Positions 49,436-62,964 of a stretch of DNA of 64,000 nt are shown here, piece by piece. The notes under the pieces are model-generated. The model did not search any database. It was given only the letters and a program-made list of their open reading frames with translations, and was not told where the DNA came from. Position numbers and translations under genes: made by a program. Within the stretch, counting starts at the first letter, position 1, and each line of letters begins with the position of its first letter. The stretch lies in the NCBI GenBank assembly GCA_040275305.1, contig JBEOJY010000001.1:78858-142857 (forward strand), read 5' to 3'. The DNA is from Bdellovibrionales bacterium (lineage in GTDB: Bacteria; Pseudomonadota; Alphaproteobacteria; UBA9219).

Positions 49436-50407
49436 ATGACTCGCAGCCGCCTCGTCATAGCTGCTAAGCTTGCCTTGTCAGGTGGCATTATATATTTGCT
49501 GGGGCAGCGGTTCGAGGCTCGGCAACTTCTCGAATCGATGCATGGCTTCGATCCGTCTTATTTGTTGGCTTCGATCTTTTGCGCCGTTCTGGCCGTTCCC
49601 ATCGTTGGATACCGTTGGGTTCTGCTTGCTAAGGCGCTTTCCGTATCCATTTCGTTTGTCGAGGCCGTTAACGCGACGTTCGCAGGGCTGTTTGTCGGAC
49701 AAATATTACCAGGCGCCATTGGCGCAGATCTTGTGCGCGGCTGGATGGTTTGGAGGGCCAAAGTCAGCAACAAGCGCATGATCGCAAGCCTCGTGCTGGA
49801 CAGGGTCGTTTCGTTGGGCGCGGTCGGGCTTATGATCGCGGGGACGTTGCCGTTTCTTATTGTTCGGCTGCCGCGCGAGCATTTTCTTTGGGTGGTGTGG
49901 AGTCTTCTGGGATTGACCGGGTGTTTGATCGCGGCATATGTCGGCTTGCGTCTTTTCGGGCGCATCAGCAAGAATTTGTCCTTACGCGCCATGATCGACA
50001 AGCTTGATTTGAAGCGATTAAAATTGTCTGTCTCGGACGCTTTGGTTTTGGCGGCTCTCGGCATCGCCGGGCATGTCGCCATGATCGTGTCCGCCTATTT
50101 TCTTAGTAAGGCTATCGGCATGAATTCGGCGCTGTGGATGTGGATGCTGGTCATGCCGGTCGTAATTTTGGCCAGCGCTATCCCGCTTTCCATCAATGGG
50201 TGGGGCGTGCGCGAATTTATGATGATTCAACTTTGGGCATCTTTTGGTTTTCTTGAGTCTGAAGCGTTTCTGACTTCCGTCTGTCTTGGCGCCGTTGCCA
50301 TGGCGTCTAGCCTTCCGGGGGTTTGGTTTTATCTGAAACGTAAATCAGGGCGGTCGCGAGAATCCCTTGAAAAGTATGCACAGGGTTTTTCCAAGAGGTT
50401 GGTGTGA
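49436..50407 (+). CDS. Flippase-like membrane protein (UPF0104 / lysyl-PG-synthase TM-region family)
   Basis: ~8 TM helices, 323 aa. Family commonly partnered with polyprenyl-phosphate glycosyltransferases. Confidence 0.55.
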   Translation: MTRSRLVIAAKLALSGGIIYLLGQRFEARQLLESMHGFDPSYLLASIFCAVLAVPIVGYRWVLLAKALSVSISFVEAVNATFAGLFVGQILPGAIGADLVRGWMVWRAKVSNKRMIASLVLDRVVSLGAVGLMIAGTLPFLIVRLPREHFLWVVWSLLGLTGCLIAAYVGLRLFGRISKNLSLRAMIDKLDLKRLKLSVSDALVLAALGIAGHVAMIVSAYFLSKAIGMNSALWMWMLVMPVVILASAIPLSINGWGVREFMMIQLWASFGFLESEAFLTSVCLGAVAMASSLPGVWFYLKRKSGRSRESLEKYAQGFSKRLV

Positions 50408-52038
50408 TGACTCTTTCGATCAAAAATAAAAACGCAGTTTATCGCGCTATAGATTTCACTCAAATTCTTATTCTTGTTGGGATATTTGTTTATTACTTTG
50501 TCGAGAATTTCGTGTTGTCCGGGAGCTGGGAAATCCTAGCGCTTCGGAGCGTTGACGACGCGGCGATGCAGGGGGCTGTCCATAATATACATAAGGCGAT
50601 GACGGAGGGGCGTTATCCGCTTAACAAGCTGCTTGCAACATTCGATTATGCTTACGGCAACGCATACTGGCTCTTGACCTCCATACTTCTTTTTCCTTTC
50701 TATCTTATCGGCGACGCGCAGGCTCAGATCGTCGCGGGGCGGCAGATTTCCTTGCTGTTTGTCGCTGGCAGCATTTATGTCATGGGGCGCATTGTTGAAA
50801 AGTTGTATCCCGAATCTCGTCGATTGAAATATCCTTTGATGATCGCGATGGCAACCGCTCCGATGGTCGCGGTAATCGCAACGAAGCTTCACGTCAACGC
50901 GCCGTGCATCTTTTGGGGCGTTTTGTCGTTTTACTACCTTGTGCGACGTCCGGACTTTATCAGGAAAGATATGATGTGGTCGGCGGTGTTCGCCGGAGTT
51001 GCTGTGGGCTTCAAGCTTACGGCGGTTTTTATTCTTCCCGTCATAGGTTTGACGTTACTCAGTCAAATCTGGCGGTTCAGTCCTTTGAGGAAGATTACCG
51101 AGATCGCTATTTTTTCCGGCCTGTTTCTTGTGGTCGCCGCAGCTTCCATGTTTCCACCCTTGCTGTTGTTTCCGTTTTACGGCGACAAAATTTCCGAGGC
51201 CTATAAAGCTTTTTTGATGTTTAGGGATCTTGCCGCTATTGGCGGCAACAGCGACTTATTTTTGAAACTTATTAACACGCTTGGTTATTTTCTCTCGCCT
51301 TTGACACTTGCTGTCCTGTCGTTCCTGTTTCTTATGCTGATCCTTGACGATATCAGGAAGCGTAGATTTGTGAGTTCGTTCATTTTCGGCACCATCTTGC
51401 TGACGCTAGGTTATCTTGTTTTGACCGTCCAAAAGGATGCTACGTATGTCGCGAGTTATATGTTGAGCGTTAGCCTGTTCCTGCCGCTTGGGCTTCTGGG
51501 GGTCGCTGCGTTCCGTGCGCCAGAATCGATCAAGCTTACCGTACTTTATCTTATCGTCGTCTCTGGCTTGATTTGCATGACGCCTCATCAGAAAAGCGTG
51601 TTTGATTATTTTAATTTCTTTGCGCTTGCCAAAAGCGAAAAAGCGACTAATCAAATGGCTGCTCTGGAAGAGATAAGGTCCTTGGTTTCGCCGTTGAAGC
51701 TTCCAGTTCGTGTTTTACAGGATTGCGAGTCCGTTTTTCCGGCGACGATGTACACCGATGGCGTTTTTATCGGGTATATTTTCGGGGACCTGAAAGACAA
51801 GACGACATGGGGGGATTTTGACTATATCCTTTTGAGCCGCAAGCATTACATTGGTAAGCCGCCTGCTCCGCTGGTCATCGACAAGAAGACTCCATTGGAG
51901 AAGCTTTCTGGCACCGAACTTGAAGAAGCCATAAGACAGCGTCTGTATGACAAGGGGGATTATTACGGGCGCAAGTATCGTTTGATTTACGATCGTTACG
52001 ATTCGCTTTTGTATCAGCTTGTGAAGCCAGCAAAATAA
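50407..52038 (+). CDS. Polytopic membrane protein, GT-C-like (ArnT/PMT-type) glycosyltransferase candidate
   Basis: ~11 predicted TM helices in the first 400 aa plus a 140-aa soluble C-terminus. Start overlaps the upstream stop (TGATG). Confidence 0.4.
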   Translation: MTLSIKNKNAVYRAIDFTQILILVGIFVYYFVENFVLSGSWEILALRSVDDAAMQGAVHNIHKAMTEGRYPLNKLLATFDYAYGNAYWLLTSILLFPFYLIGDAQAQIVAGRQISLLFVAGSIYVMGRIVEKLYPESRRLKYPLMIAMATAPMVAVIATKLHVNAPCIFWGVLSFYYLVRRPDFIRKDMMWSAVFAGVAVGFKLTAVFILPVIGLTLLSQIWRFSPLRKITEIAIFSGLFLVVAAASMFPPLLLFPFYGDKISEAYKAFLMFRDLAAIGGNSDLFLKLINTLGYFLSPLTLAVLSFLFLMLILDDIRKRRFVSSFIFGTILLTLGYLVLTVQKDATYVASYMLSVSLFLPLGLLGVAAFRAPESIKLTVLYLIVVSGLICMTPHQKSVFDYFNFFALAKSEKATNQMAALEEIRSLVSPLKLPVRVLQDCESVFPATMYTDGVFIGYIFGDLKDKTTWGDFDYILLSRKHYIGKPPAPLVIDKKTPLEKLSGTELEEAIRQRLYDKGDYYGRKYRLIYDRYDSLLYQLVKPAK

Positions 52039-52050
52039 GTAGGATGTTTG

Positions 52051-52584
52051 ATGAATAGCGTTTTAAAGCCCAAGCAATTCATTCTTGATGTCGATGGCGT
52101 TATGACCACTGGCCAATTCCTCTATACGCCTGAGGGCAAGGCCATGAAGGTCTTTGGTCCGGACGATAATGACGCGCTTTCGCTGCTCAAACCGTATATG
52201 GATATCCGCTTCGTGACGGGCGACAAAAAGGGGTTTCCTATCAGCAAGAGACGCATCGTCGACGATATGGGCTTTTCTTTGGAGATCGTCAGCACGATTC
52301 GCCGCATCGACTGGATTCGCCAGCAGTTCGATCCTCAGGACGTTATCTATATGGGCGACGGAATCTTTGACCACTATGTCATGCGGCAGGTGGGGTATGC
52401 TATCGCGCCCGCAAATTCGGATGCACTTGCGAAGCGCCATGCGCATTTTGTCACGCAGAGAAGCGGTGGCGATCGCGCCGTCGCGGAGGCTTGTCTTCAC
52501 ATTCTGGAGAGGTTCTTCGCGCCCTATAATCCAGACATGTTGCCGAGCGAAAACACCAAGCTTTCCGGGGAGTGGACCGTATGA
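52051..52584 (+). CDS. HAD-IIIA phosphatase, KdsC-like
   Basis: ILDVDGVMTTG, ...GDK..., YMGDG..D motifs of the KdsC/YrbI subfamily. SD agga 5 nt upstream. Confidence 0.7.
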   Translation: MNSVLKPKQFILDVDGVMTTGQFLYTPEGKAMKVFGPDDNDALSLLKPYMDIRFVTGDKKGFPISKRRIVDDMGFSLEIVSTIRRIDWIRQQFDPQDVIYMGDGIFDHYVMRQVGYAIAPANSDALAKRHAHFVTQRSGGDRAVAEACLHILERFFAPYNPDMLPSENTKLSGEWTV

Positions 52585-53750
52585 TTCATCAAAGACTGGA
52601 GTCATTTCTCAACAAGCGGCGTTGCACGCTTTTGGGCCTTGGCCCTATGAGCGTCAATTGCGTCGATGCCGCAATCGAGTTGGCGAACGAGCATGAGATT
52701 CCGCTGTTGATGGTCGCCTCGCGGCGACAGATCGATTCTGAGGATTTCGGAGGGGGCTATGTCAACAATTGGACGACTTCGGAATTCGCTCGCTATGTGA
52801 TCGACCATGACAAGAAGGGCAAAATCCTTCTGGAACGCGATCATGGCGGGCCGTGGCAGAATACTAAGGAGATTGATGCGGGGCTTAGCCTGCGTCGCGC
52901 CATGGAGTCTGCCAAGGCGTCATATCGCGCCGATATCGATGCTGGATTTCAGATTATCCATATCGATCCGAGCGTGGATATTCATGGAACGCCGGATGTT
53001 GACGATGTTCTGGAGAGGATCTTCGAGCTTTATGAATATTGTTGGAGCCATGCGCAGAAGCTTCAGCGAGAGATCATTTTTGAGATCGGCACGGAGGAGC
53101 AGAGCGGTAGCACCAACACGCAGGAGGAGTTGGACTACACATTGAGAACGGTCAAACGCTTTTGTTCCAAGAACAATTTCCCACAGCCGACTTTTGTCGT
53201 CGTGCAGTGCGGTACGCGCACGAAAGAGACCCGCAATGTGGGGTCTTTCGACGCTCCGGTGCGCGTCGCCGACGAGTTGCCGCCGGAAATCCAGTTGCCT
53301 AGGATGATCGAGATTTGTAACAAATACTCCATCTTCATGAAGGAGCATAACGCAGACTATCTTTCGGATGCGGCTTTACAGTGGCATCCGCGTCTGGGCA
53401 TTCATGCGGCTAACATTGCGCCGGAATTCGGCGTCGCGGAGACTCGCGCTTTGGTTTCGATTCTGGAGTCCCATGGCCAGAAGAAGTCTGCCGAAGAATT
53501 TCTTAAGGCTTCGTATGATTCCAGAAAATGGGAGAAATGGATGGTCGAGAACACCAAGGCGACTGATCGCGACAGGGCCATTATTTCAGGACACTATGTG
53601 TTCTCCAAGCCGAAGGTCGTCGAGCAATTGGCGGCGGCCAAACAGAATCTCAAGGCGAAAGGCATCGACCTTGATCTTCAGCTTAAAGAGGCCGTCAAGA
53701 AATCCATCTTGCGCTATCTTGTCAATTTCCGTCTCGCGAGGGTCGCATGA
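52572..53750 (+). CDS. GatZ/KbaZ-family (tagatose-bisphosphate aldolase non-catalytic subunit-like) TIM-barrel protein
   Basis: The N-terminal ~110 aa align with E. coli GatZ: LLGLGPMSVNCVDAAIELA vs GICSVCSAHPLVIEAAL; LLMVASRRQIDSEDFGGGYVNNWTTSEFARYV vs [28 protein letters not shown]. Overlaps the kdsC-like 3' end by 13 nt. Confidence 0.55.
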   Translation: MDRMIHQRLESFLNKRRCTLLGLGPMSVNCVDAAIELANEHEIPLLMVASRRQIDSEDFGGGYVNNWTTSEFARYVIDHDKKGKILLERDHGGPWQNTKEIDAGLSLRRAMESAKASYRADIDAGFQIIHIDPSVDIHGTPDVDDVLERIFELYEYCWSHAQKLQREIIFEIGTEEQSGSTNTQEELDYTLRTVKRFCSKNNFPQPTFVVVQCGTRTKETRNVGSFDAPVRVADELPPEIQLPRMIEICNKYSIFMKEHNADYLSDAALQWHPRLGIHAANIAPEFGVAETRALVSILESHGQKKSAEEFLKASYDSRKWEKWMVENTKATDRDRAIISGHYVFSKPKVVEQLAAAKQNLKAKGIDLDLQLKEAVKKSILRYLVNFRLARVA

Positions 53751-54574
53751 ACAAGCGCGTTGCTACGATTATTTTGAATCGCAATCTGCCGGAGGCGACG
53801 GATCGACTGTATGATCATTTGATTAAACACGATGGCGATTTTACGGATGTGTATGTCGTCGAGTCCGGTTCCGATCCCGATCGCTTGTCCAAACATGTCA
53901 CATGGCGCGCGGATTGGCCTGAGGCGGTCGCTCATGGTTTGCGCTTTAACAGGGGGATGAATTACGGGTTGAGCCAGTTGTGGAAGGAAGGCAAGTTCAA
54001 GAACTATGACGCATTCTTTCTTCTGACGAACGATTCGGAACTGCAAGATAGCTCGACGCTCAAGCCGTTGTTGGATATTCTTGACAAGCATCGGCGGGTC
54101 GGGATTCTGTCGCCCTGCGGCAAGCGTTGGGGCGAAAGATTTCTGCTTAAGCATCAGACGACGAAATATTTTTGGTTCATTCACAACAACGCCTTGTTGT
54201 TGCGACGCGAGTTTGTCGAGGCGGTTCTTAACGCGGATCAGCCCGATCATATGGGGTTTTTGTTTGATGGCGCAAACTTTCGGGGCTACGGCGCGGAAAG
54301 CGAAATGATCGCCAAGGCCTATGCCAACGACTGGGCGGCGGCCATCACTTCGGATGTTTACGTCGGGGAGAACGAATCGTATCTTCTCAATCAGGCTGAT
54401 CTGATCAAGACGGAAGGCTATGAAGAGAATTTGAGGCTCTATATCGAGGAAGGCCAGCGCTGGATGCGCAATAAGTACGGATTCAACAGCCGCTGGTCGA
54501 TGCAGCAATATGTGAAGAGCTTCTACGAACGGTTCTTCGACTTTTATCCGGAATACAAAAACTATCAGGTGTGA
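53747..54574 (+). CDS. GT-A-fold glycosyltransferase-like protein
   Basis: VATIILNRNLPE at the N-terminus resembles the GT2 start; TNDSE possible DxD. ATGA overlap with the upstream gene. Confidence 0.4.
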   Translation: MNKRVATIILNRNLPEATDRLYDHLIKHDGDFTDVYVVESGSDPDRLSKHVTWRADWPEAVAHGLRFNRGMNYGLSQLWKEGKFKNYDAFFLLTNDSELQDSSTLKPLLDILDKHRRVGILSPCGKRWGERFLLKHQTTKYFWFIHNNALLLRREFVEAVLNADQPDHMGFLFDGANFRGYGAESEMIAKAYANDWAAAITSDVYVGENESYLLNQADLIKTEGYEENLRLYIEEGQRWMRNKYGFNSRWSMQQYVKSFYERFFDFYPEYKNYQV

Positions 54575-54582
54575 GGATCGTC

Positions 54583-54927
54583 ATGGACGTTATCGAAAAG
54601 CCTTGGGGCAAGGAAGAAGTGATCGAGATCAATGATCGCTATATGATGAAGAAGCTTACGATGTGGAAAGGCCATCGTTGCAGCATTCAGTATCATAACG
54701 TCAAATGCGAGACGATCTATGTGTTGTCGGGGCAGTTGCGCATCTATAGCGGCCCTTCGCTTGAAAAGCTTGACTCCAAGGTTTATGTGCCCGGCGAGAC
54801 GATCACGATCAGGCCGGGGACCGTTCATCGCATGGAAGCGGTCGAGGATAGCGTCTATCTAGAAGCCAGCACCCCGGAAATGACAGATGTGGTGCGGCTT
54901 CAGGACGATTATCAAAGGGCTTCGTAG
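54583..54927 (+). CDS. Cupin-domain protein (mannose-6-phosphate-isomerase type II C-terminal-like)
   Basis: EKPWGKEE ... H.CSIQYH ... ETIYVLSG. SD gagga upstream. Confidence 0.6.
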   Translation: MDVIEKPWGKEEVIEINDRYMMKKLTMWKGHRCSIQYHNVKCETIYVLSGQLRIYSGPSLEKLDSKVYVPGETITIRPGTVHRMEAVEDSVYLEASTPEMTDVVRLQDDYQRAS

Positions 54928-56504
54928 TGGGGTACAGGGTTTGCATTCCGACCGCAGGGACGGGGTCAAGGCTCGGCGGGTTGACGCGGTATGTCAATAA
55001 GTCGCTGGTCGCTCTTGCCAACCGTCCGACCTTGTCGCATGTGATCGAGCAATTTCCACAAGATGCAGAATTCGTCATTCCGCTGGGGCACAAGGCTCAT
55101 CTGGTACGCGAATATTTGCAGTTGGCCTATCCGCAGCGCAAATTTTTCTTCGCCAGCGTTTCGCCGTTCGAAGGGCCGGGGTCGGGGCTTGGGCTTAGCC
55201 TGCTCACCTGCAAGGAATTTCTCCAGCAACCCTTCATCTTCATTTCCTGTGATACTCTGGTGAAAGAACCGATCCCCGCGCCTGACCAAAACTGGATGGG
55301 CTATGCGGAGTTGGATCAGATTGCGTCGTACAGGACGCTTTGCGTTCGCGATGGGAAGGTCGAGAGGATTTGCGAGAAGGGCGAGGGGAGTCCGGAGACG
55401 CACAAGCCCTATATCGGGCTTGCAGGCATTCACGATTACAAGGCTTTCTGGGAGGCTATGGAGGCGGGCGGCGACAAGACGATTGCTATGGGTGAGTCGC
55501 ACGGAATGCGCGACCTTGTGGGCCTTGACATTCGCGCGCATGGCTTCACGTGGTTCGACACGGGCAATCCGCAGGCTTTGGCGCGGACTCAGGAAGCCTA
55601 TCGGGTGGCGGATGCTCCTAATATTCTTGAGAAGGCGAACGAGGCGATTTGGTTCGTGGACGGCAAGGTCATCAAGTTTTCGGACGACGAAAAGTTTATT
55701 CGGAACAGGGTCGAGCGCGTTGGCGAGCTTACGGGATTCGTGCCGGAAGTTACGGGTTCGACCGCTCATATGTACAGCTATGCCAAGGTGAAGGGCAGGG
55801 TGCTGTCCGAGGCGGTGACGCTGCCGGTATTTGACAAACTGTTGGCATTCAGCAAGGGATTTTGGCAACCGCATGCGTTGGACGCCGCCGGGGCCAAGGC
55901 TTTCCATGACGGCTGCATGAAGTTTTATCGGGACAAGACTTTGGAGCGCGTGCAGCTTTTCTATAAGAATTTCAAGCGGCAGGACGGCACGGAATCCATC
56001 AATGGGTTCGCTATGCCGACGCTTGAGGAATTGTTCAAGTCGCTGGATTGGGAGTGGCTTGCGCAGGGTATGTCAGGACGGTTCCATGGCGATTTTCATT
56101 TCGAGAATATTTTGTGGGATGCTGATACAAAACGGTTTGTTTTTCTTGATTGGCGACAAGATTTTGGCGGCGATCTTAAGACGGGCGATGTTTATTACGA
56201 TCTGGCTAAGCTTTGGCATGGCCTTATCATTTGCCATGAGTTGATTGCCCAGAATCAATTCTTGGTCGAATGGGGCGCTAGGGAAATCCGTTACGATTTT
56301 CATCGTAAACAGATGCTGGTCGCGTGCGAAGAGGCGTATAGGCGATGGCTTGATGCTGAAGGATATGACCGCAAGAAAGTTTGGATTATGACGGCGCTGG
56401 TCTACCTTAATATTGCGGCTTTGCACCATTATCCCTATTCGTTGTTGTTGTATGCCTTGGGCAAGGCGATGCTGTTCAGAGGATTGCAAGATGCAGTTGA
56501 TTGA
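54927..56504 (+). CDS. Fused nucleotidyltransferase (N-term) plus APH/choline-kinase-like kinase (C-term); LicCA-like or MurU/AmgK-like
   Basis: N-terminus CIPTAGTGSRLG (sugar/alcohol-phosphate NTase G-loop). C-terminus HGDFHFENILWD...FLDW (Brenner HGDxxxxN motif and D of APH/ChoK fold). GTG start overlaps the cupin stop. Confidence 0.6.
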   Translation: MGYRVCIPTAGTGSRLGGLTRYVNKSLVALANRPTLSHVIEQFPQDAEFVIPLGHKAHLVREYLQLAYPQRKFFFASVSPFEGPGSGLGLSLLTCKEFLQQPFIFISCDTLVKEPIPAPDQNWMGYAELDQIASYRTLCVRDGKVERICEKGEGSPETHKPYIGLAGIHDYKAFWEAMEAGGDKTIAMGESHGMRDLVGLDIRAHGFTWFDTGNPQALARTQEAYRVADAPNILEKANEAIWFVDGKVIKFSDDEKFIRNRVERVGELTGFVPEVTGSTAHMYSYAKVKGRVLSEAVTLPVFDKLLAFSKGFWQPHALDAAGAKAFHDGCMKFYRDKTLERVQLFYKNFKRQDGTESINGFAMPTLEELFKSLDWEWLAQGMSGRFHGDFHFENILWDADTKRFVFLDWRQDFGGDLKTGDVYYDLAKLWHGLIICHELIAQNQFLVEWGAREIRYDFHRKQMLVACEEAYRRWLDAEGYDRKKVWIMTALVYLNIAALHHYPYSLLLYALGKAMLFRGLQDAVD

Positions 56505-57627
56505 AAGATCCCGTTGCGCGATTTCCGGGCAGGACGATCTGGAGCCGCTTTACACGTTTCCCAAGTTTCCCGTGTTCATGGGGTGCATGGATCAGCCGGA
56601 GACGGACGATCTCAAGCAGGATATGGCTTGGTGGATCAGCCGGGGAAGCGGCTTGATCCAATTGAAGAACTTGTTGCCTCTCGATGTGCTCTATCCGGAG
56701 TCGCATGGTTCCGGCGCAATCGGCGCGTTATGGGAGAAGCATCACAGGACGTTCGCGCAGTTTATTCATCGCCTCAATCCTTCGTCGGTGCTGGAGATCG
56801 GAGGGGGGCATGGCATGCTGGCCAAAGAATATCAGTCTTTGGCTGACATTCCGTGGACGATCCTTGAGCCGAATCCTTCTCCGGTCGAGGGATTGAAAGC
56901 GCGCATCATCAAGGGTTTCTTCGACGAGCGCTTTACGTTTAGCGATTCGTTCGATGTTCTCGCGCACTCCCATGTTTTCGAGCATATTTATGAACCCGAC
57001 CAGTTTATGGGCCAATTATCCCACTTTATGAAGGTCGGGCAGCATCTGGTGTTTTCCTTGCCGAATATGCAGGTCATGCTTGAGCGCCAGTACAACAATT
57101 GCATCAATTTTGAGCACACGGTTTTGCTGACCGAGACCTATGTCGAGCATTTGCTCGCCAAACATGGGTTCAGGGTTCATGCCAAGGAATTCTTCATGGA
57201 CGATCACAGCATCTTTTATGACGCGGTGCGCGATGATACCATGAAGCCGATGGCGCTGCCGTCTGGGCTCTACGATTCCTATAAGAATCTTTATCTGGGC
57301 TATGTCGGTCATCATCAAAAGCTGGCTTCGGAATTGAACGAGACGATCCGGGGTCTTTCCGGACCGGTCTATCTCTTTGGCGCGCATGTGTTTTCGCAAT
57401 ATATGCTCGCGTTCGGGCTGGATGAGAGCAAGATCACATGCCTGCTGGATAACGATCCAAACAAGCAGGGACGGAGGCTTTACGGCACGTCGCTCGGCGT
57501 GAAATCCCCCTCTTGTCTTAAGTCGGTGGACAAACCGCATGTTATTTTGAAGGCAGGCGTTTACAATCAGGAAATAAAAAATGATATATTGAAGAATATC
57601 AATCCGCATACTGTCTTTTTGGGGTGA
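56491..57627 (+). CDS. Class I SAM-dependent methyltransferase with C-methyltransferase-type N- and C-terminal extensions
   Basis: VLEIGGGHGMLA motif I. ~380 aa architecture like NDP-sugar C-/O-methyltransferases. Confidence 0.6.
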   Translation: MQLIERSRCAISGQDDLEPLYTFPKFPVFMGCMDQPETDDLKQDMAWWISRGSGLIQLKNLLPLDVLYPESHGSGAIGALWEKHHRTFAQFIHRLNPSSVLEIGGGHGMLAKEYQSLADIPWTILEPNPSPVEGLKARIIKGFFDERFTFSDSFDVLAHSHVFEHIYEPDQFMGQLSHFMKVGQHLVFSLPNMQVMLERQYNNCINFEHTVLLTETYVEHLLAKHGFRVHAKEFFMDDHSIFYDAVRDDTMKPMALPSGLYDSYKNLYLGYVGHHQKLASELNETIRGLSGPVYLFGAHVFSQYMLAFGLDESKITCLLDNDPNKQGRRLYGTSLGVKSPSCLKSVDKPHVILKAGVYNQEIKNDILKNINPHTVFLG

Positions 57628-57630
57628 TCC

Positions 57631-58521
57631 ATGGCTGCCGCGCATAGTTCTGGCCTTAAAGTCGGCCTTATCATCCCGGTTTTCAATGTCGAAAAAACCA
57701 TCGCTAAGGTTTTGGCGGGGATTCCGCAAAAGTTTTTTGAGGATATTTCTGAAATCCTTGTCGTCGACAACCATAGCTCCGATAACACCGTGCCTGTGAT
57801 CATGGGGTTTATGAACGAGCACCCGGATTTCGCTTCGCATGTTACATTCATTCAACATGCCGAGAATTACGGCTATGGCGGTAGCATTAAGGCTGGTTTT
57901 GAGTATTTCATCAACCGAGGCATGACCCATGCGATGATTTTCCATGGGGATCATCAGGTTGATCCCGCGTGGCAGATTGGCCTTCTTTTGAGCATCATCA
58001 AGGATAAGCCGCAGACGGATCTTGTGATGTCGAGCCGTTTTTTGTCCGAAAGCAAGATCGAGAACTACAGCCTTCTACGCACCGTCGGCAACTATTTCTT
58101 CAATGCCGTGACGACGCTTTGCTCCGGTTGCAAGATGTCGGATGCAGGGACGGCGATTATCGTCGCGCGTTGCGACGCGTTGAGCCGGGTGCCGTTTCGC
58201 AATCTTTCCAACACGTGGCAGTTCCATCCGCAGCTTAATATTCTTATCCACAAACTGCCGAATGTGCAGGTGGTGGAGACGACCTTAAACTGGTCGGATT
58301 CCGAGGCTGGTTCGTCGGTGCCCCTGATTCGCTATGGCTTGATCTTGTTGAGAATGCTTGTGCGGTATTGGTACAAGACGAATGTTCTGAGACAGAAGCC
58401 GGAGCAGGCTTTCCCGGTCGATTCGGTTCGGGCTGATCGCCGCTATACCGTGTTGATGCAGTCAGGAAAGGACGCTCCTGTCGCGTGCGGCGAGGCTGTG
58501 GGATTGTCCGCAGCGCGGTGA
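57631..58521 (+). CDS. GT2 polyprenyl-phosphate glycosyltransferase (DPM1/GtrB/ArnC-like)
   Basis: GLIIPVFNVEKTI, VVDNHSSDNT (DxD-like). C-terminal amphipathic/TM region. Confidence 0.75.
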   Translation: MAAAHSSGLKVGLIIPVFNVEKTIAKVLAGIPQKFFEDISEILVVDNHSSDNTVPVIMGFMNEHPDFASHVTFIQHAENYGYGGSIKAGFEYFINRGMTHAMIFHGDHQVDPAWQIGLLLSIIKDKPQTDLVMSSRFLSESKIENYSLLRTVGNYFFNAVTTLCSGCKMSDAGTAIIVARCDALSRVPFRNLSNTWQFHPQLNILIHKLPNVQVVETTLNWSDSEAGSSVPLIRYGLILLRMLVRYWYKTNVLRQKPEQAFPVDSVRADRRYTVLMQSGKDAPVACGEAVGLSAAR

Positions 58522-58525
58522 ATTA

Positions 58526-59413
58526 TCAGCCGGCTTTTTCTTCGTTCAGCAGGCGCAGGATGTATTGTCCGTAGCCGCTTTTGGCCATGGGTTGGGCCAG
58601 ACGTTCGAGCTGTTCCGCGCTTATGAAGCCTCGGCGGAACGCTACTTCCTCAGGACAGGCGATTTTCAGGCCTTGCCGCTTTTCAATGGTTCTCACGAAT
58701 AAGCCCGCGTCCATCAGACTGTCATGCGTCCCGGTGTCTAGCCATGCGTAGCCGCGCCCCATGATTTCGACGTTGAGCTGGCCTCGTCGCATGTAGTGGC
58801 GGTTTACGTCGGTGATTTCCAGTTCGCCACGCGCTGAGGGCTTGAGGTTCTTTGCGATATCGACGACTTGGTTGTCATAAAAATATAGACCAGTCACGGC
58901 GTAGTTGCTTTGCGGATTAGCTGGCTTTTCTTCCAAAGAGATGGCGTGGCCATCCTTGTCGAAGGAGACGACACCATAGCGCTCCGGGTCCTGCACACGG
59001 TAGGCGAAGACGGTTGCGCCGCTTTTGCGCGCGTTAGCATGCTCGGTGCGCATCGGCAGGTCGTTGCCGTAGAAGATATTGTCGCCCAACACAAGGGCGC
59101 TTGGCGCGTCGCCAAGGAAGTCTTGCGCGATCAGGAAGGCTTGCGCGAGGCCGTCGGGGCTAGGCTGCACAGCGTACTGAAAGTTCATGCCCCATGGGTT
59201 TCCATCGCCCAACAATTGCTCGAAGCGCGGCGTGTCCTGCGGCGTCGAGATAATCAGGATGTCGCGCAGACCCGCCAGCATCAGGACGCTGAGAGGATAA
59301 TAAATTAATGGCTTATCGAAGACCGGCAGCAACTGCTTGGAGACCGCCATGGTCAGGGGATAGAGCCTCGTGCCGGAGCCTCCGGCGAGGACGATGCCTT
59401 TGCGTGCAAGCAT
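58526..59413 (-). CDS. rfbA: Glucose-1-phosphate thymidylyltransferase
   Basis: [16 protein letters not shown], typical RmlA. Confidence 0.92.
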
Positions 59414-59526
59414 AATTTTTACCAATTGCCTGTTTCTGGCCGCTTTACTGTGTTGGGACGTTGCTGTGTCGCCCGCATTTCTGATAGAGTGTGGCCTATC
59501 TCTTTCATGAAAGACGTGCCAGACAA

Positions 59527-60084
59527 ATGCTTGCGGTTCAAGAATTATCCATTCCCGGCGTCAAGTTGGTCCGGCCTAGGGTTTTCGATGACCCTCGCGG
59601 CACGATGACCGAGGTCGCGCACGATGCGCGGTTTCGCGAGTTGGGATTCCCGGATTTTGTGCAGGAAAATCAATCTTTTTCGAGGCTTCGCGGCACGATT
59701 AGGGGTATGCATTTCCAGAAACCGCCACAGGCGCAAGCCAAGCTGGTGAGGGTTTTACGAGGCCAGATTTTCGATGTCGCGGTTGATGTGCGGCCACAAT
59801 CGGCGAGTTTTGGGCGGCATGCGGTGGCGATGCTATCGGAAGACGAGCTGGCGTGGCTTTATGTTCCCGAAGGCTTCGCGCATGGGTTTTGCACGCTGAC
59901 GAAGGATGTTCAGGTTCTGTACAAGGTTTCTTCCTACTATGCGCCGGGCAGCGAGTGCGGCATGCGTTGGAATGATCCGGCGCTGGGGATTGATTGGCCG
60001 ATTTCCCCGTCAGAGGCGGTTTTATCGGATAAGGACATGCAATTGCCATTGTTCAAGGATCTTCCGGCGGTCATTTGGGGTTAA
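59527..60084 (+). CDS. rfbC: dTDP-4-dehydrorhamnose 3,5-epimerase
   Basis: DDPRG...F.E...[14 protein letters not shown]. RmlC cupin. Confidence 0.9.
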
Positions 60085-60118
60085 TTGTTACGCAGTTGAT
60101 TTCATAGGGTGTATTGCG

Positions 60119-61222
60119 ATGGTTGAGACTCATCATAGCAACAGAGTGCTGGTGACGGGATGCGCGGGATTTATCGGCGCGAATTTTGTTCATCACTTTT
60201 TGGGGCGCACGCGTGGCGGTGGCGCGGTGGTGGGGCTGGATAAGCTGACCTACGCTGGGTGTCTCAAGAATTTGGAGAGCCTTGAGGGCGATGCGCGGTT
60301 TGCCTTCGCGCGCGGCGATATCGGCGACGTTGCGCTTGTGAGGAGCTTGCTTGAGAAGCATAAGCCAGCGGCGATCATCAATTTCGCCGCCGAGTCGCAT
60401 GTTGATCGCTCGATCCATGCGCCGGAAGCGTTCATCGAAACGAATGTGGCGGGGACGTTCCGGCTGCTTGAGGCAGTGAAGGCGTATTGGGTTGGGTTGG
60501 AGGGCGAAGAGAAAGCGCAGTTTCGTTTTCTGCATATTTCGACCGACGAGGTCTATGGTTCGCTGGGGCCGAACGACCCCGCTTTTACCGAAGAGAATCC
60601 CGCGCGGCCCAACAGCCCTTATGCGGCGTCAAAGGCGAGCTCAGATCATCTTGCGCGGGCGTATCACCACACTTATGGGTTGCCTACTTTGACGACGAAT
60701 TGCTCGAACAATTATGGGCCGTACCAGTTCCCTGAAAAGCTAATTCCGCTCATGATTCACCATGCGCTTGCAGGCAAGAAATTGCCGGTTTATGGCGACG
60801 GGCAGAATGTACGCGACTGGCTTTTCGTTGAAGATCATTGCGTGGCGATTATGCGTGTGCTGGAAGCGGGGCGCGTGGGAGAGGTCTATAATGTTGGTGG
60901 GCGCAACGAGGTCAAGAATCTCGATGTCGTGCATACGCTTTGCGATATTCTGGACCGTTTAAGGCCTCGCGCGGAGGGTGGTTCGTACCGTGAGCAAATT
61001 ACCTTTGTCATGGATCGTCCGGGGCATGACAGGCGCTATGCGATTAATGCCGACAAGATTGCGGCGGAGCTTGGCTGGAAACCTGCGGAGACTTTCACAA
61101 CAGGGTTCGAGAAGTCGGTGCGCTGGTATTTGGAGCATGAAGACTGGGTTGCGCATGTCACATCTGGCGCATATCGCCAGTGGATGGAGACGAATTACGA
61201 AGGACGTGTAGCGCGGGCGTGA
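60119..61222 (+). CDS. rfbB: dTDP-glucose 4,6-dehydratase
   Basis: VLVTGCAGFIG, YAASK, extended-SDR RmlB motifs. Confidence 0.93.
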   Translation: MVETHHSNRVLVTGCAGFIGANFVHHFLGRTRGGGAVVGLDKLTYAGCLKNLESLEGDARFAFARGDIGDVALVRSLLEKHKPAAIINFAAESHVDRSIHAPEAFIETNVAGTFRLLEAVKAYWVGLEGEEKAQFRFLHISTDEVYGSLGPNDPAFTEENPARPNSPYAASKASSDHLARAYHHTYGLPTLTTNCSNNYGPYQFPEKLIPLMIHHALAGKKLPVYGDGQNVRDWLFVEDHCVAIMRVLEAGRVGEVYNVGGRNEVKNLDVVHTLCDILDRLRPRAEGGSYREQITFVMDRPGHDRRYAINADKIAAELGWKPAETFTTGFEKSVRWYLEHEDWVAHVTSGAYRQWMETNYEGRVARA

Positions 61223-61349
61223 GATATTTTTAGCTCGCTGCCGCTTGCGGATGGATGCCGGATCAAGTCCCGCATGACGTGGAGAGTGCAATCGTCAGAA
61301 ATCGTAGTTGTGCCTTGGGGGGGATTCCATGGGGACCGTGCCAGTTCAG

Positions 61350-62072
61350 CTATGCTGGCGGTCTTTCGATTTCGGTGACGGTTCCGTGCTCAAGGCGGAA
61401 GAAGCGGTTGCAATAATCGCGCACGAGTTTGTTGTCGTGCGAGGCGAAGACGAAGATTCCAACCGAGCGGATCAATTCTTCCATGCGTTGTTTGGCCTTG
61501 ACCTGAAACTCGGCGTCTCCGGTGCCGAACATTTCATCCACAAGTAGGATATCGGGCTTGGTCGAGGTCGCGACGGCGAACATCAGGCGCGTGGCCATAC
61601 CGCTTGAATAGGTGCGGACGGGCAGTTCGAGAAATTCCCCCAGCTGTGTGAATTCCTCGATTTCTTTCGCGTTACGTTTGATTTCCGCATTCGACAAGCC
61701 CAGAAGCTTTGACATGCGGATGATGTTCTCGTAGCCGGATAGCTCCATATCCATTCCGGTTCCAAGCTCTAGTACGGTCGCTACCCTTCCTGTGCGTTCT
61801 ACCCGGCCTTCCATGGGGGCGTAGACTCCGGCCATGGTGCGCAGCATTGTGCTTTTGCCCGCGCCATTGTGTCCTATCAGGCCAACAGTGTCGCCTTCGC
61901 GCAGCGTGAAGCTGACATTCTTCAGCGCGGTGACGAGGCGGATGTTTCCGGCGTCTTCTTCGATGCGGCCGCCTGTGCTGATGCGCACGAGGTGGTTGCG
62001 CAGGGACATGCTGCGGCTGTTGTAGATCGGGTAACGGATGGTTACGTTGTCGAAGGCGAGATGCGCGCTCAT
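61350..62072 (-). CDS. ABC transporter ATPase for polysaccharide export (Wzt/KpsT/TagH-like)
   Basis: GHNGAGKST, YSSGMATRL, LLVDE. Confidence 0.85.
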   Translation of the reverse strand: MSAHLAFDNVTIRYPIYNSRSMSLRNHLVRISTGGRIEEDAGNIRLVTALKNVSFTLREGDTVGLIGHNGAGKSTMLRTMAGVYAPMEGRVERTGRVATVLELGTGMDMELSGYENIIRMSKLLGLSNAEIKRNAKEIEEFTQLGEFLELPVRTYSSGMATRLMFAVATSTKPDILLVDEMFGTGDAEFQVKAKQRMEELIRSVGIFVFASHDNKLVRDYCNRFFRLEHGTVTEIERPPA

Positions 62073-62089
62073 GTTCGGTTCCGCCTATC

Positions 62090-62872
62090 CTATACCCAGA
62101 ATGCAATGCGCTTGCATTTGGCGTTGAACATCGCAAGCGCCAAAGCTCCGCCGATTAGCAGCATGCCGCCATTGACGGCGTAGAGAAACCACGGAGTCGG
62201 TTCGCCGAGAAGCGGCGACCTGATGATTTCGATCATGTTGGCTAGCGGATTGAGCCATATATATTTTCCGGAAAAAGGCAGCGCGTTCGGGCGGTACAAC
62301 ACGGGGCTTAGGAACATCAGGAGCGGCAAGATCATGGCGACCAGATATTCGAAGTCGCGGAATCTTGCGCCCATCATGCCGAAGATCAGAGAAATCCAGA
62401 ATAGATTGCCTACGACCAACAAAAAGCCGGGAATTACCATCAGCGTGTTCAAGTTGATTGGCGAACCAAGAATCAGGGCCACAATAAAGAATAGAGGAAC
62501 ATTGTGCGCGATGTTGATTGTGTGGCGCAAAGCTAGCTGGGCGACATGCAGAGAGAGCGGCAGGTCGAGATTTTTGATGATGTTCGCCTGTCGCGTGAAG
62601 ACAGAGGTTGATTCGGCGATGCAGGAAGCCATGAACTGCCAGAGAATCAGGCCGGCCGTCAGCGAGGGTATGTAGGTCGCTTTGTCTTGTTTGAACAGTT
62701 CGCTCCAAATGAAGCCCAAGCCGACGACGCCGAAGGCGGTTCCTATCGTGATCCATAGCGGGCCTAGCACGCTGCGTTTATAGCGCGCACGAATGTCGCT
62801 CCAAGCCATGTACAGGATCAGGCTTGGGTTCTTGAAGGTTTTTATGATGTCAGACAGACCGGGAGCACTCAT
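62090..62872 (-). CDS. ABC-2 type permease (Wzm/KpsM-like)
   Basis: 6 TM helices; ABC-2 signature region. Start MSAPGLSDIIKTF. Confidence 0.8.
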   Translation of the reverse strand: MSAPGLSDIIKTFKNPSLILYMAWSDIRARYKRSVLGPLWITIGTAFGVVGLGFIWSELFKQDKATYIPSLTAGLILWQFMASCIAESTSVFTRQANIIKNLDLPLSLHVAQLALRHTINIAHNVPLFFIVALILGSPINLNTLMVIPGFLLVVGNLFWISLIFGMMGARFRDFEYLVAMILPLLMFLSPVLYRPNALPFSGKYIWLNPLANMIEIIRSPLLGEPTPWFLYAVNGGMLLIGGALALAMFNAKCKRIAFWV

Positions 62873-62964
62873 TAGCGCTGGGTTCCTTGGAAAACGGGTA
62901 GTCTCCATTACCCGAAAATGACGCGAGAGGCAATTCGTTCGCCTTATGTTCCGTTTGGGGTGTT

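What the first reader, a model, noticed from the sequence alone, without database searches (positions are those of the whole stretch)
49436..58521. Split three-component polyprenyl-phosphate-sugar periplasmic glycosylation module
The DPM1-like GT2 (57631-58521) would make a polyprenyl-P-sugar on the cytoplasmic face. The flippase-like protein (49436-50407) would flip it. The GT-C-like membrane protein (50407-52038) would transfer the sugar in the periplasm. This mirrors GtrA/GtrB/Gtr(type) O-antigen glucosylation and ArnC/ArnEF/ArnT lipid A modification. Here the trio brackets the precursor cassette. The whole island may therefore encode a post-polymerisation decoration of LPS or another periplasmic glycan rather than the backbone itself.
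Basis: inference. Interest (0 to 1): 0.5.

Follow-up and report, generated by a model that had tools for sequence, protein, structure and literature searches.

The report
Periplasmic sugar-decoration operon with own donor pathway
A nine-gene operon probably makes an unusual methylated sugar, loads it on a lipid carrier, flips it across the inner membrane and attaches it to a surface polysaccharide outside the cytoplasm; the scheme is a known one, but its transferase family and its widely spread sugar pathway are uncharacterised.

Summary
All nine + strand genes from 49436 to 58521 are real and tightly packed.

- **296-aa GT2:** its family profile ranks polyprenyl-phosphate sugar synthases first (DPMS 2e-22, ArnC 2e-17). 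Its DXD motif reads His-Gly-Asp, and it has no membrane helix.
- **323-aa protein:** it is an MprF-type flippase domain (PF03706), not GtrA.
- **Synteny:** the order flippase, GT-C, six enzymes, GT2 recurs in five independent loci, all beside O-antigen genes and in four of the five beside Wzm/Wzt-type ABC transporter genes. Two of the five lack the flippase.

The more interesting result concerns the six enzymes in the middle. They form a core cassette that keeps its gene order at 54-79% identity across more than a dozen phyla, usually without this trio. Their homologies suggest a nucleotide-activated methylated rare hexose made from fructose-6-phosphate. The sugar's identity is inferred, not shown.

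I rate this a new variant of a known kind.

The parts
49436..50407 (+). MprF-type (UPF0104/PplT, PF03706) membrane protein, the putative flippase for the lipid-linked sugar
   Evidence: PF03706 at 1.1e-35, 124 bits against a cutoff of 33.4, profile positions 1-294 of 302. TIGR00374 at 1.5e-13. Seven hydrophobic segments. Orthologs at 41-50% identity sit in the same position in L001, L004 and L005. No solved structure matches by sequence.
50407..52038 (+). GT-C fold glycosyltransferase of an unclassified family, with a C-terminal soluble alpha/beta domain (about residues 430-544)
52051..52584 (+). HAD phosphatase of the KdsC/YrbI type, a putative sugar-phosphate phosphatase
   Evidence: TIGR01670 at 8.8e-18, below its cutoff; KdsC and KDN-9-P phosphatase models also hit. 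47-80% identical in the cassette loci.
52572..53750 (+). GatZ/KbaZ-like class II aldolase-fold enzyme, a putative ketose-phosphate C4 epimerase or aldolase
   Evidence: PF08013 at 1e-9. PDB 2fiq (GatZ) at 1e-3. D90-H91, E175 and H259 are kept in at least 95% of 46 homologs. One search aligns D90-H91 and E175 with GatZ Asp87/His88 and Glu171; the H259-His257 match is my reading of the motif, since that alignment ends at residue 176. Residue roles are from PMC11907403.
53747..54574 (+). 275-aa soluble protein of unknown function, the most conserved gene of the operon
   Evidence: No Pfam, NCBIfam or PDB sequence match even at E up to 10. At least 1951 clusters (90% identity) match at E 0.01 or better; the best 120 are all 70-100% identical to the window protein and 274-275 aa long. 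54-79% identical in 44 species-level loci. Its motifs look GT-A-like by eye, but hhalign against the GT2 family gives a probability of 1.3%.
54571..54927 (+). Small cupin related to the C-terminal domain of type II phosphomannose isomerase, a putative ketose/aldose isomerase
   Evidence: PF01050 at 9.1e-10 and PF07883 at 4.4e-7. It matches the C-terminal part of the GMP/PMI models.
54927..56504 (+). Fusion of a sugar-1-phosphate nucleotidyltransferase (N-terminal) with an APH-type kinase (C-terminal)
   Evidence: PF01636 APH at 1.5e-10 (residues 363-433) and PF12804 at 6.4e-5. The profile's best PDB hits are LicC 4.8e-9, glucose-1-P cytidylyltransferase, RmlA and HddC. All 15 members hit sugar-1-P nucleotidyltransferase models and 11 of 15 hit MurU. 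H387, G388 and D389 are invariant and N394 nearly so, which is the kinase catalytic loop motif HGDxxxxN.
56491..57627 (+). SAM-dependent methyltransferase with the three-domain architecture of NDP-sugar 3-C-methyltransferases
   Evidence: PF13489 at 3.5e-13 and PF08484 (C-methyltransferase C-terminal domain) at 6.5e-4. The profile's best PDB hits are the mycarose 3-C-methyltransferase 4rv9 at 2.8e-14 (positions 7-364 of 379), TcaB9 at 1.4e-13 and the sugar 3-C-methyltransferase 5t64. E208-H209 is invariant and aligns with the EH of 4rv9.
57631..58521 (+). DPM1-like GT2, a putative polyprenyl-phosphate sugar synthase with no membrane helix
   Evidence: PF00535 at 5.9e-14. Family profile: P. furiosus DPMS 5mlz 2.4e-22, ArnC 1.5e-17, GtrB 4.9e-12. 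AglJ and PpgS are hit by 32 of 32 members, ArnC and PgfS by 30, and the Dol-P hexose transferase by 29. D107, Q109 and R136 are invariant and H105 nearly so, in the motifs HGDxQxxP and SRF. No hydrophobic segment.
58526..63843 (.). Context only: the adjacent O-polysaccharide backbone locus, with rmlA (-), rmlC (+), rmlB (+), an ABC ATPase (-), an ABC-2 permease (-) and a GT2 (-)
   Evidence: RfbA at 2.2e-155. dTDP_sugar_isom 1.3e-62, GDP_Man_Dehyd 4.6e-91 and ABC_tran 1.3e-22. ABC2_membrane 1.7e-16 and Glycos_transf_2 2.1e-15.

Best explanation
The nine genes form one operon that makes, lipid-links, exports and attaches a single side-chain sugar.

**Proposed steps**
1. Six soluble enzymes build a nucleotide-activated sugar.
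   - The GatZ-like enzyme reshapes a ketose phosphate, most simply fructose-6-P to tagatose-6-P by C4 epimerisation.
   - The cupin isomerises it to an aldose phosphate.
   - The HAD phosphatase removes the non-anomeric phosphate. This happens either before the kinase acts, as in an AmgK/MurU-like salvage route, or after it, as in the GmhB-like heptose route.
   - The APH-type kinase puts a phosphate on C1, and the fused nucleotidyltransferase makes the NDP-sugar.
   - The TylC3-like methyltransferase adds a methyl group.
   - The 275-aa protein has an unknown but essential role.
2. The DPM1-like GT2 transfers the sugar to undecaprenyl phosphate on the cytoplasmic face.
3. The MprF-type PF03706 protein moves the lipid-linked sugar to the periplasmic face.
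4. The GT-C enzyme, using the Asp-Asp motif in its first periplasmic loop, transfers the sugar to a glycan. The most likely acceptor is the O-polysaccharide made by the neighbouring ABC-transporter pathway, before ligation.

**Shown here:** gene anatomy, folds and family relations, conserved residues and conserved synteny.

**Inferred:** every catalytic activity, the identity of the lipid carrier, the sugar and the acceptor.
For: - **GT-C fold and motif:**
- **GT2 closest to polyprenyl-phosphate sugar synthases:**
- **PF03706 above the gathering score:**
- **GT2 and GT-C are co-inherited:** every locus that has the GT-C has the GT2.
- **Conserved bracketing order:** five independent loci.
- **O-antigen context:** Wzm/Wzt, rml, FdtA and GT61 genes in the window and in all five related loci.
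- **The flippase family can vary in such systems.** Three-component periplasmic glycosylation is established for ABC-transporter O-antigens, and a MATE flippase is used in Citrobacter (PMC11127046).
- **Precedent for this trio.** A neighbourhood of UPF0104, a PMT/STT3-like GT-C and an AglD-like GT2 was predicted for archaea in PMC5898192.
- **Donor pathway:**
  - GatZ catalytic residues are conserved.
  - The nucleotidyltransferase resembles MurU and sugar-1-P enzymes and is fused to an APH kinase.
  - The methyltransferase is homologous over its full length to NDP-sugar 3-C-methyltransferases.
Against: - There are no biochemical data for any component.
- The first Asp of the GT2's DXD motif is His, and the GT2 lacks the membrane helices of GtrB and ArnC.
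- The flippase gene is absent from L002 and L003, so it is not an obligatory linked part.
- PF03706 proteins are experimentally tied to phospholipids (MprF), not to polyprenyl-phosphate sugars.
- C-methylation normally needs a keto sugar, and no dehydrogenase or dehydratase lies in the cassette.
- The role of the 275-aa protein is unexplained.
Confidence: 0.7

Rival explanations
1. The GT2 is an ordinary cytoplasmic Leloir transferase that adds the cassette sugar to the growing Und-PP-linked glycan. The GT-C then does something else with a diphosphate-linked donor, for example oligosaccharyl transfer to protein or another en bloc transfer.
Confidence: 0.12
2. The module works as proposed, but the acceptor is not the O-polysaccharide. 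It could be lipid A or core (as for ArnT), a periplasmic or outer-membrane protein (as for PMT), or another envelope glycan.
For: ArnT and the PMT enzymes are among the closest folds. The C-terminal periplasmic domain has no identified relative. L002 carries two tandem GT-C paralogs, which suggests two acceptor sites.
Against: All six loci lie inside or next to O-antigen clusters with rml, FdtA and GT61 genes, and four of the six carry Wzm/Wzt-type ABC transporter genes. None lies beside lipid A modification genes.
Confidence: 0.13
3. The PF03706 protein is not part of the glycosylation route. It translocates a membrane phospholipid or glycolipid, as MprF does and as is predicted for GpgF, and is linked only by neighbourhood. 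The lipid-linked sugar is flipped by an unlinked protein or without a dedicated one.
For: It is missing from L002 and L003. The experimental record for the family concerns phospholipids.
Against: Its stop codon overlaps the GT-C start. It holds the same position directly upstream of the GT-C in four independent loci. An unrelated cassette locus, L037, also has PF03706 close to a PMT_2 GT-C. The archaeal neighbourhoods and the AglD fusion described in PMC5898192 point the same way.
Confidence: 0.2

Closest known systems
GtrA/GtrB/Gtr(type) O-antigen glucosylation (Shigella, Salmonella) and the Klebsiella galactose-adding three-component system cited in PMC11127046
   Same: The logic is the same: a DPM1-like GT2 makes Und-P-sugar, a flippase exports it, and a GT-C adds a single side-chain sugar in the periplasm. 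The Klebsiella case also acts on ABC-transporter-made O-antigens (PMC11127046).
   Different: The flippase is PF03706 (about 320 aa, 7-8 helices), not the small GtrA. The GT2 has no C-terminal membrane helices. The GT-C matches no Pfam family. The three genes are split by a six-gene donor pathway instead of using a housekeeping UDP-sugar.
ArnC / ArnE-ArnF / ArnT lipid A modification with L-Ara4N
   Different: Sequence identity to ArnT is only 11-13%, and the window protein has no PMT_2 or PMT Pfam hit. The flippase family differs. The context is O-antigen, not lipid A. The sugar chemistry differs.
Citrobacter youngae O1/O2 pentofuranose three-component system (GT136, MATE flippase; PMC11127046)
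   Same: It is a post-polymerisation periplasmic side-chain addition to an ABC-transporter O-antigen. It uses a non-GtrA flippase and founded a new GT-C family. Auxiliary enzymes diversify the sugar.
   Different: There the donor lipid is made from PRPP by a phosphoribosyltransferase, not from an NDP-sugar by a GT2. The flippase is of the MATE type.
Archaeal neighbourhood of arCOG00899 (UPF0104), arCOG00563 (PMT/STT3-like) and arCOG00897 (AglD-like GT2), and the AglD fusion (PMC5898192)
   Same: The same three protein classes are linked, and the UPF0104 member is predicted to be the flippase.
   Different: That case is archaeal, rests on prediction only, and concerns S-layer N-glycosylation with dolichol carriers. 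It has no embedded donor pathway.
AmgK/MurU (anomeric sugar kinase plus sugar-1-P uridylyltransferase) and the GmhA/HddA/GmhB/HddC GDP-heptose route
   Same: Each combines an APH-type or other anomeric kinase, a nucleotidyltransferase, a HAD phosphatase and a ketose/aldose isomerase to turn a sugar phosphate into an NDP-sugar. MurU models are hit by 11 of 15 members, and HddC appears among the PDB hits.
   Different: Here the kinase and nucleotidyltransferase are fused. The isomerase is a cupin rather than a SIS protein, and the phosphatase is KdsC-like rather than GmhB-like. A GatZ-like enzyme, a C-methyltransferase homolog and an unknown 275-aa protein are added.

Membership tests
GT-C glycosyltransferase superfamily | A multi-helix membrane domain whose fold is shared with ArnT, PMT, STT3 and the ALG enzymes | tested here: met
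GT-C glycosyltransferase superfamily | A conserved acidic motif (DxD, ExD or DD) in the first extracytoplasmic loop after the first membrane helix | tested here: met
   R48-S-x-D51-D52 follows helix 1. The DD pair is invariant in 36 sequences that reach 16% identity. The periplasmic location of the loop is inferred from the positively charged N-terminus and from homology; it was not computed.
GT-C glycosyltransferase superfamily | Membership of a curated sequence family (PMT, PMT_2, GT87, GtrII and others) | tested here: not met
   The window protein has no Pfam or NCBIfam hit even at E up to 10. Only a few distant relatives, at most 3 of 36 for any one family, hit PMT_2, PMT, GT87, GtrII or TMEM260-like. 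The profile against PDB sequences gives only ALG6 at E 0.1.
DPM1-like GT2 (polyprenyl-phosphate sugar synthases: DPMS, GtrB, ArnC, PpgS, AglJ) | The closest sequence relatives are polyprenyl-phosphate sugar synthases, aligned across both the donor and acceptor halves | tested here: met
   DPMS 5mlz at 2.4e-22 over positions 7-189, ArnC at 1.5e-17 and GtrB at 4.9e-12. AglJ and PpgS are hit by 32 of 32 members, and ArnC and PgfS by 30 of 32. All scores are below the equivalog cutoffs, so it is not an ortholog of any named enzyme.
DPM1-like GT2 (polyprenyl-phosphate sugar synthases: DPMS, GtrB, ArnC, PpgS, AglJ) | The catalytic DxD motif in the form DADxQ | tested here: inconclusive
   The family has H105-G-D107-x-Q109. 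The second Asp and the Gln are invariant, and the first Asp is His in nearly all members. The distant member P0105 has DADGQ.
DPM1-like GT2 (polyprenyl-phosphate sugar synthases: DPMS, GtrB, ArnC, PpgS, AglJ) | C-terminal membrane or interface helices that hold the enzyme at the membrane (GtrB, ArnC, P. furiosus DPMS) | tested here: not met
   No hydrophobic segment at a Kyte-Doolittle threshold of 1.6 over 19 residues. Only an amphipathic-looking stretch near residue 235, noted by eye. From my own knowledge, not a tool result: human DPM1 also lacks a membrane helix.
DPM1-like GT2 (polyprenyl-phosphate sugar synthases: DPMS, GtrB, ArnC, PpgS, AglJ) | Transfers a sugar from an NDP-sugar to polyprenyl phosphate | not testable with these tools
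   Needs an enzyme assay.
MprF flippase domain / UPF0104 / PplT (PF03706) | A full-length match to the family model above the curated cutoff, with 7-8 membrane helices | tested here: met
   124 bits against 33.4, positions 1-294 of 302. Seven hydrophobic segments.
MprF flippase domain / UPF0104 / PplT (PF03706) | Lipid translocation activity, and which lipid is moved | not testable with these tools
   Even for relatives such as GpgF and the AglD C-terminal domain, the activity is only predicted.
Gtr-type three-component periplasmic glycosylation system | A GtrA-family (PF04138) small flippase, with the three genes contiguous | tested here: not met
   No PF04138 hit in the operon. The trio is split by six genes in every locus. 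It works like a Gtr system but is not a member of the gtrABC family.
NDP-sugar 3-C-methyltransferases (TylC3, TcaB9, KijD1) | A three-domain architecture with the catalytic Glu-His pair | tested here: met
   Full-length alignment to 4rv9 at 2.8e-14 and to TcaB9 at 1.4e-13. E208-H209 is invariant and aligned with the EH of 4rv9.
NDP-sugar 3-C-methyltransferases (TylC3, TcaB9, KijD1) | An N-terminal four-cysteine zinc site, and a 4-keto sugar substrate supplied by a dehydratase | tested here: inconclusive
   No cysteine is among the invariant or nearly invariant columns of the N-terminal region. No dehydratase or oxidoreductase lies in the type 1 cassette. C-methylation versus O-methylation cannot be decided.
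GatZ/KbaZ C4 epimerases | The catalytic Asp and the His/Glu/His zinc ligands (GatZ D87, H88, E171, H257) | tested here: met
   D90-H91, E175 and H259 are kept in at least 95% of 46 homologs. One search aligns D90-H91 and E175 with GatZ D87/H88 and E171; the H259-H257 match is by eye, because that alignment ends at residue 176. Residue roles come from PMC11907403. Overall similarity is weak: PF08013 at 1e-9, and NCBIfam scores far below the cutoffs.

The most novel reading that the evidence does not exclude
The six-gene core (KdsC-like HAD, GatZ-like enzyme, 275-aa unknown, cupin, nucleotidyltransferase-kinase fusion, TylC3-like methyltransferase) may be an uncharacterised, horizontally mobile pathway. 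It would build a nucleotide-activated methyl-branched or methylated rare hexose directly from a ketose phosphate by GatZ-type retro-aldol chemistry, bypassing the usual NDP-4-keto-6-deoxy routes. The 275-aa protein would then be a new enzyme family. In this window the product is delivered by a new GT-C family together with an MprF-type flippase acting on a polyprenyl-phosphate sugar.
Probability: 0.35. Interest if true: 0.75.

Novelty: new variant of a known kind. Interest (0 to 1): 0.55.

Why it matters
- **Flippase.** This would be a bacterial three-component periplasmic glycosylation system with an MprF-type flippase in place of GtrA, ArnEF or a MATE protein. It offers a genetically simple place to test whether PF03706 proteins move polyprenyl-phosphate sugars. 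That has been predicted for archaea since 2015 and never shown.
- **GT-C family.** The GT-C belongs to a family of about 334 clusters at 50% identity. The window protein itself matches no Pfam model, so the family is a candidate new CAZy family.
- **Donor pathway.** The embedded cassette occurs in at least 1951 protein clusters, across Chlorobi, cyanobacteria, Verrucomicrobia, Planctomycetes, Elusimicrobia, Firmicutes and many Proteobacteria. Its identity across these phyla is unusually high, and every source that names its central protein calls it 'hypothetical'.
- **Payoff.** Identifying the product would name a surface sugar of many environmental bacteria and add enzymes for rare-sugar nucleotide synthesis.

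Tried and rejected
- **Single-sequence AlphaFold of the 544-aa protein.** It gave pLDDT 41.6 and is unusable. It also used one of the two modelling jobs, so the GT2, the 275-aa protein and the flippase could not be modelled.
- **Sequence-only PDB searches for the GT-C.** These gave only a spurious OMP decarboxylase hit at E 0.22 and ALG6 at E 0.1.
- **GT-A test for the 275-aa protein.** It looks GT-A-like by eye, but hhalign against the GT2 family gave a probability of 1.3%, and Pfam and PDB gave nothing. It is therefore not claimed to be a glycosyltransferase.
- **Promoter and terminator scan.** The counts were no higher than in shuffled sequence.
- **Literature searches for the cassette.** Searches on GatZ, cupin, kinase, O-antigen, 3-C-methyl sugars and tagatose-6-P epimerase in polysaccharide synthesis found no description of it.
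- **The afdb50 fold library.** It was not available.
- **A LicC/LicA-type phosphocholine reading of the fusion protein.** LicC is the top PDB hit. I set this aside because all members also hit sugar-1-P nucleotidyltransferase models and the operon ends in a glycosyltransferase.

Full report
**1. What is in the sequence**

The window matches a MAG annotated as Bdellovibrionales. The 544-aa protein and the GT2 are 100% identical to NCBI entries from a 196.6-kb contig.

Nine + strand ORFs between 49436 and 58521 follow each other with overlaps or gaps of 10 nt or less:

| Coordinates | Size | Assignment |
|---|---|---|
| 49436-50407 | 323 aa | PF03706 membrane protein |
| 50407-52038 | 543 aa from the ATG | membrane protein, no Pfam hit |
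| 52051-52584 | 177 aa | KdsC-like HAD |
| 52572-53750 | 392 aa | GatZ/KbaZ-like |
| 53747-54574 | 275 aa | no family hit |
| 54571-54927 | 118 aa | cupin |
| 54927-56504 | 525 aa | nucleotidyltransferase-APH kinase fusion |
| 56491-57627 | 378 aa | methyltransferase |
| 57631-58521 | 296 aa | GT2 |

- The ORF tool starts the methyltransferase at TTG 56413. ATG 56491 reproduces the 14-nt overlap and the 378-aa length seen in other loci.
- Housekeeping genes lie upstream: relA/spoT, rpoZ, NYN, NlpC/P60, cytochrome b561 and YceI.
- An O-polysaccharide locus lies downstream: rmlA on the opposite strand, rmlC, rmlB, an ABC ATPase of 240 aa, an ABC-2 permease and a GT2.
- GC content falls from about 0.56 to 0.47-0.50 over the GT-C gene and over the methyltransferase and GT2 genes.

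**2. The 544-aa protein is a GT-C glycosyltransferase**

- **Few close homologs.** A word-indexed search found only 24 homologs, all about 540 aa, none with a Pfam domain.
- **Model quality.** A single-sequence model was useless (pLDDT 41.6). The model built on the 24-sequence alignment reached pLDDT 81.6 and pTM 0.79.
  - PglB (14.6), AglB, AftB and AftD;
  - the GPI transamidase subunits GAB1 and PIG-U, which share the fold without being transferases;
  - ALG3, Pmt1, ALG6, AftA, DPY19, PimE and EmbA.

- **Foldseek** put ArnT first at E 7.8e-5.
- **Exhaustive profile search.** A search of 1.84 billion representatives found 334 clusters at E 1e-3 or better, nearly all about 540 aa and aligned end to end.
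- **Conserved residues.** In a 36-sequence alignment of that wider family, down to 16% identity, the invariant residues are D51, D52, Y84, G85, R113, K204 and Y352, and R48 is nearly invariant (544-aa numbering). The Arg-x-x-Asp-Asp motif lies just after the first membrane helix, where GT-C enzymes carry their catalytic acidic motif.
- **Link to curated families.** At most 3 of the 36 hit any one of PMT_2, PMT, GT87, GtrII or TMEM260-like. This gives a weak transitive sequence link to the ArnT/PMT clan.
- **C-terminal domain.** The last 110 residues or so form a soluble alpha/beta domain.

**3. The GT2 sits with polyprenyl-phosphate sugar synthases**

- About 60 close homologs and a group of more distant ones were found.
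- The family profile hits P. furiosus dolichyl-phosphate mannose synthase at 2.4e-22, ArnC at 1.5e-17 and GtrB at 4.9e-12. These alignments run through about 185 positions, including the acceptor half. Ordinary GT2 enzymes align only over the nucleotide-binding half.
- Against NCBIfam, AglJ and PpgS are hit by all 32 members, ArnC and PgfS by 30, and a dolichyl-phosphate hexose transferase by 29. All scores are below the equivalog cutoffs.
- Conserved motifs are DNxSxD, NYGYGxS, H-G-D-x-Q-x-x-P, D-x-V-x-S-R-F and an Arg at position 150.
- Two features depart from GtrB and ArnC. The first Asp of DXD is His, and there is no membrane helix.

**4. The 323-aa protein**

- It matches the MprF transmembrane (flippase) domain over its full length, far above the curated cutoff.
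- Published work ties this family to phospholipid translocation by MprF, and proposes the same for YbhN/PplT and GpgF.
- Makarova et al. (PMC5898192) predicted that members next to PMT/STT3-like proteins and AglD-like GT2 enzymes, or fused to AglD, flip lipid-linked sugars in archaeal glycosylation.
- No tool here can test the activity.

**5. Synteny**

- The order flippase, GT-C, HAD, GatZ-like, 275-aa, cupin, fusion protein, methyltransferase, GT2 is identical in Sulfuriflexus mobilis (L001), a Burkholderiales MAG (L005/L008) and contig L004.
- L003 lacks the flippase gene.
- L002 also lacks it, and carries a second tandem GT-C paralog where the HAD gene would be.
- The trio is therefore never contiguous. 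It always brackets the cassette.
- The GT2 family is found wherever the GT-C is. It also occurs, at 37% and 28% identity, in two Verrucomicrobia loci (L016, L026). Those loci instead carry other 14-15-helix proteins with no Pfam hit.
- All trio loci sit among O-antigen genes: Wzm/Wzt, rml, FdtA, DegT, GT61 and WbqC.

**6. The cassette is a much larger story than the trio**

- **Spread.** The 275-aa protein has at least 1951 clusters at 90% identity. The best 120 are all 70-100% identical to the window protein and 274-275 aa long, and every source that names one calls it hypothetical.
- **Taxa.** A scan of one genome per species found 44 loci. They include:
  - Chlorobium ferrooxidans, Prochlorococcus, Synechococcus and a Legionella species;
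  - Massilia, Pseudoduganella, Luminiphilus and Solidesulfovibrio;
  - MAGs of Planctomycetota, Verrucomicrobia, Elusimicrobia, Synergistaceae, Oscillospiraceae, Bacteroidota, Dadabacteria and others.
- **Gene order.** HAD, GatZ-like, 275-aa, cupin and fusion protein are adjacent in the same order in most of these loci; the HAD or the methyltransferase sits elsewhere in a few (L016, L023, L026, L042, L050). Identities are 54-79% for the 275-aa protein and 56-78% for the GatZ-like protein. The methyltransferase is detected in 36 of the 51 loci held, some of which are duplicates or short fragments.
- **Trio is rare.** Only six loci, counting the window, have this GT-C.
- **Two variants.** The cupin and fusion protein exist in two co-varying variants. 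The second is about 33% identical, has a longer cupin, and is accompanied by a shikimate-dehydrogenase-like gene.
- **Other users of the product.** Ten loci carry a GT90-like protein of about 420 aa. L037 has another PF03706 protein and a PMT_2 GT-C nearby.

**7. What the cassette probably makes (inference)**

- **GatZ-like protein.** It keeps the Asp-His, Glu and His that correspond to the catalytic Asp87 and the zinc ligands His88, Glu171 and His257 of E. coli GatZ. GatZ is now known to act as a fructose-6-P/tagatose-6-P C4 epimerase.
- **Cupin.** It resembles the isomerase domain of type II phosphomannose isomerase.
- **Fusion protein.**
  - The N-domain is a sugar-1-P or phospho-alcohol nucleotidyltransferase.
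  - LicC is the best PDB hit, all members hit sugar-1-P models, and 11 of 15 hit MurU.
  - The C-domain is an APH-type kinase with an intact HGDxxxxN loop.
- **HAD.** It is of the KdsC/YrbI type.
- **Pathway logic.** Together these give ketose phosphate, then aldose phosphate, then aldose-1-phosphate, then NDP-aldose. The phosphatase acts either before the kinase (AmgK/MurU-like) or after it (GmhB-like).
- **Methyltransferase.** It is a full-length homolog of NDP-sugar 3-C-methyltransferases and keeps the Glu-His pair. The product may therefore be methyl-branched. O-methylation is not excluded, and no enzyme in the cassette is an obvious source of a 4-keto sugar.
- **275-aa protein.** Its role is unknown.

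A simple concrete guess is a methylated talose-type or galactose-type hexose derived from fructose-6-P. I hold that guess with low confidence.

**8. Comparison with known systems, and verdict**

The operon works like the Gtr, Arn and Citrobacter GT136 three-component systems (PMC11127046). It matches the UPF0104 / GT-C / GT2 neighbourhood predicted for archaea.

It is not a member of the gtrABC family. It has no GtrA and is not contiguous. Its GT-C belongs to no curated sequence family.

What is new:
- the unclassified GT-C family;
- the MprF-type flippase in a bacterial system;
- the embedded, very widespread and unnamed donor pathway.

Noticed in passing
window 53747-54574; loci L001-L051: The 275-aa protein is 54-79% identical across more than a dozen phyla and always 274-275 aa long, yet it has no Pfam, NCBIfam or PDB match. 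In the same loci the neighbouring GT-C is only 39-45% identical. This points to very strong constraint, frequent horizontal transfer, or both.
   Followed up: partly
L006, L013, L016, L021, L024, L026, L037, L049 (about 800-3000 bases downstream of the 275-aa gene): A second variant of the cupin plus nucleotidyltransferase-kinase pair, about 33% identical to the window's, has a cupin of about 250 aa. In six loci it comes with a shikimate-dehydrogenase-like gene. It probably makes a different epimer or a reduced form of the sugar.
   Followed up: partly
L002 9926-11584 and 11606-13201: Two tandem paralogs of the GT-C sit here (E 3e-223 and 5e-196 against the family profile). The second occupies the slot of the HAD gene. 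This suggests two acceptor sites or two linkages.
   Followed up: no
L004 3356-8734 (- strand): Directly beside the cassette lies a second putative periplasmic glycosylation module. It comprises a GT2 (313 aa), GtrA (114 aa), a radical SAM protein, a methyltransferase and a 569-aa 10-helix protein with no Pfam hit.
   Followed up: no
L014, L022, L028, L030, L034, L037, L038, L039, L046, L051: A protein of about 420 aa with a weak GT90 match (5e-4) recurs next to the cassette in ten loci that lack the GT-C and GT2. It may be the usual cytoplasmic transferase for the cassette product.
   Followed up: partly
L037 150-1397 (-) and 3540-4538 (+): An Elusimicrobiales locus carries another PF03706 protein (3.7e-42) and a PMT_2 GT-C (3e-7) within 10 kb upstream of the cassette. 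This is an independent pairing of the same two protein classes.
   Followed up: no
window 1-64000: GC skew is positive in every 2-kb block (0.08-0.19), although genes lie on both strands.
   Followed up: no
window 49558-50082, 52063-52605, 53714-54508, 54966-55907, 57016-57954 (- strand): Long antisense ORFs of 174-313 aa overlap the operon genes. Similar antisense ORFs recur in the related loci only because the sense genes are conserved. I treated them as shadow ORFs.
   Followed up: partly
window 61350-62072 (-): The ABC ATPase of the neighbouring O-antigen exporter is only 240 aa, so it has no C-terminal carbohydrate-binding module. From general knowledge of these systems, that suggests an exporter that does not depend on recognising a capped chain end.
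   Followed up: no
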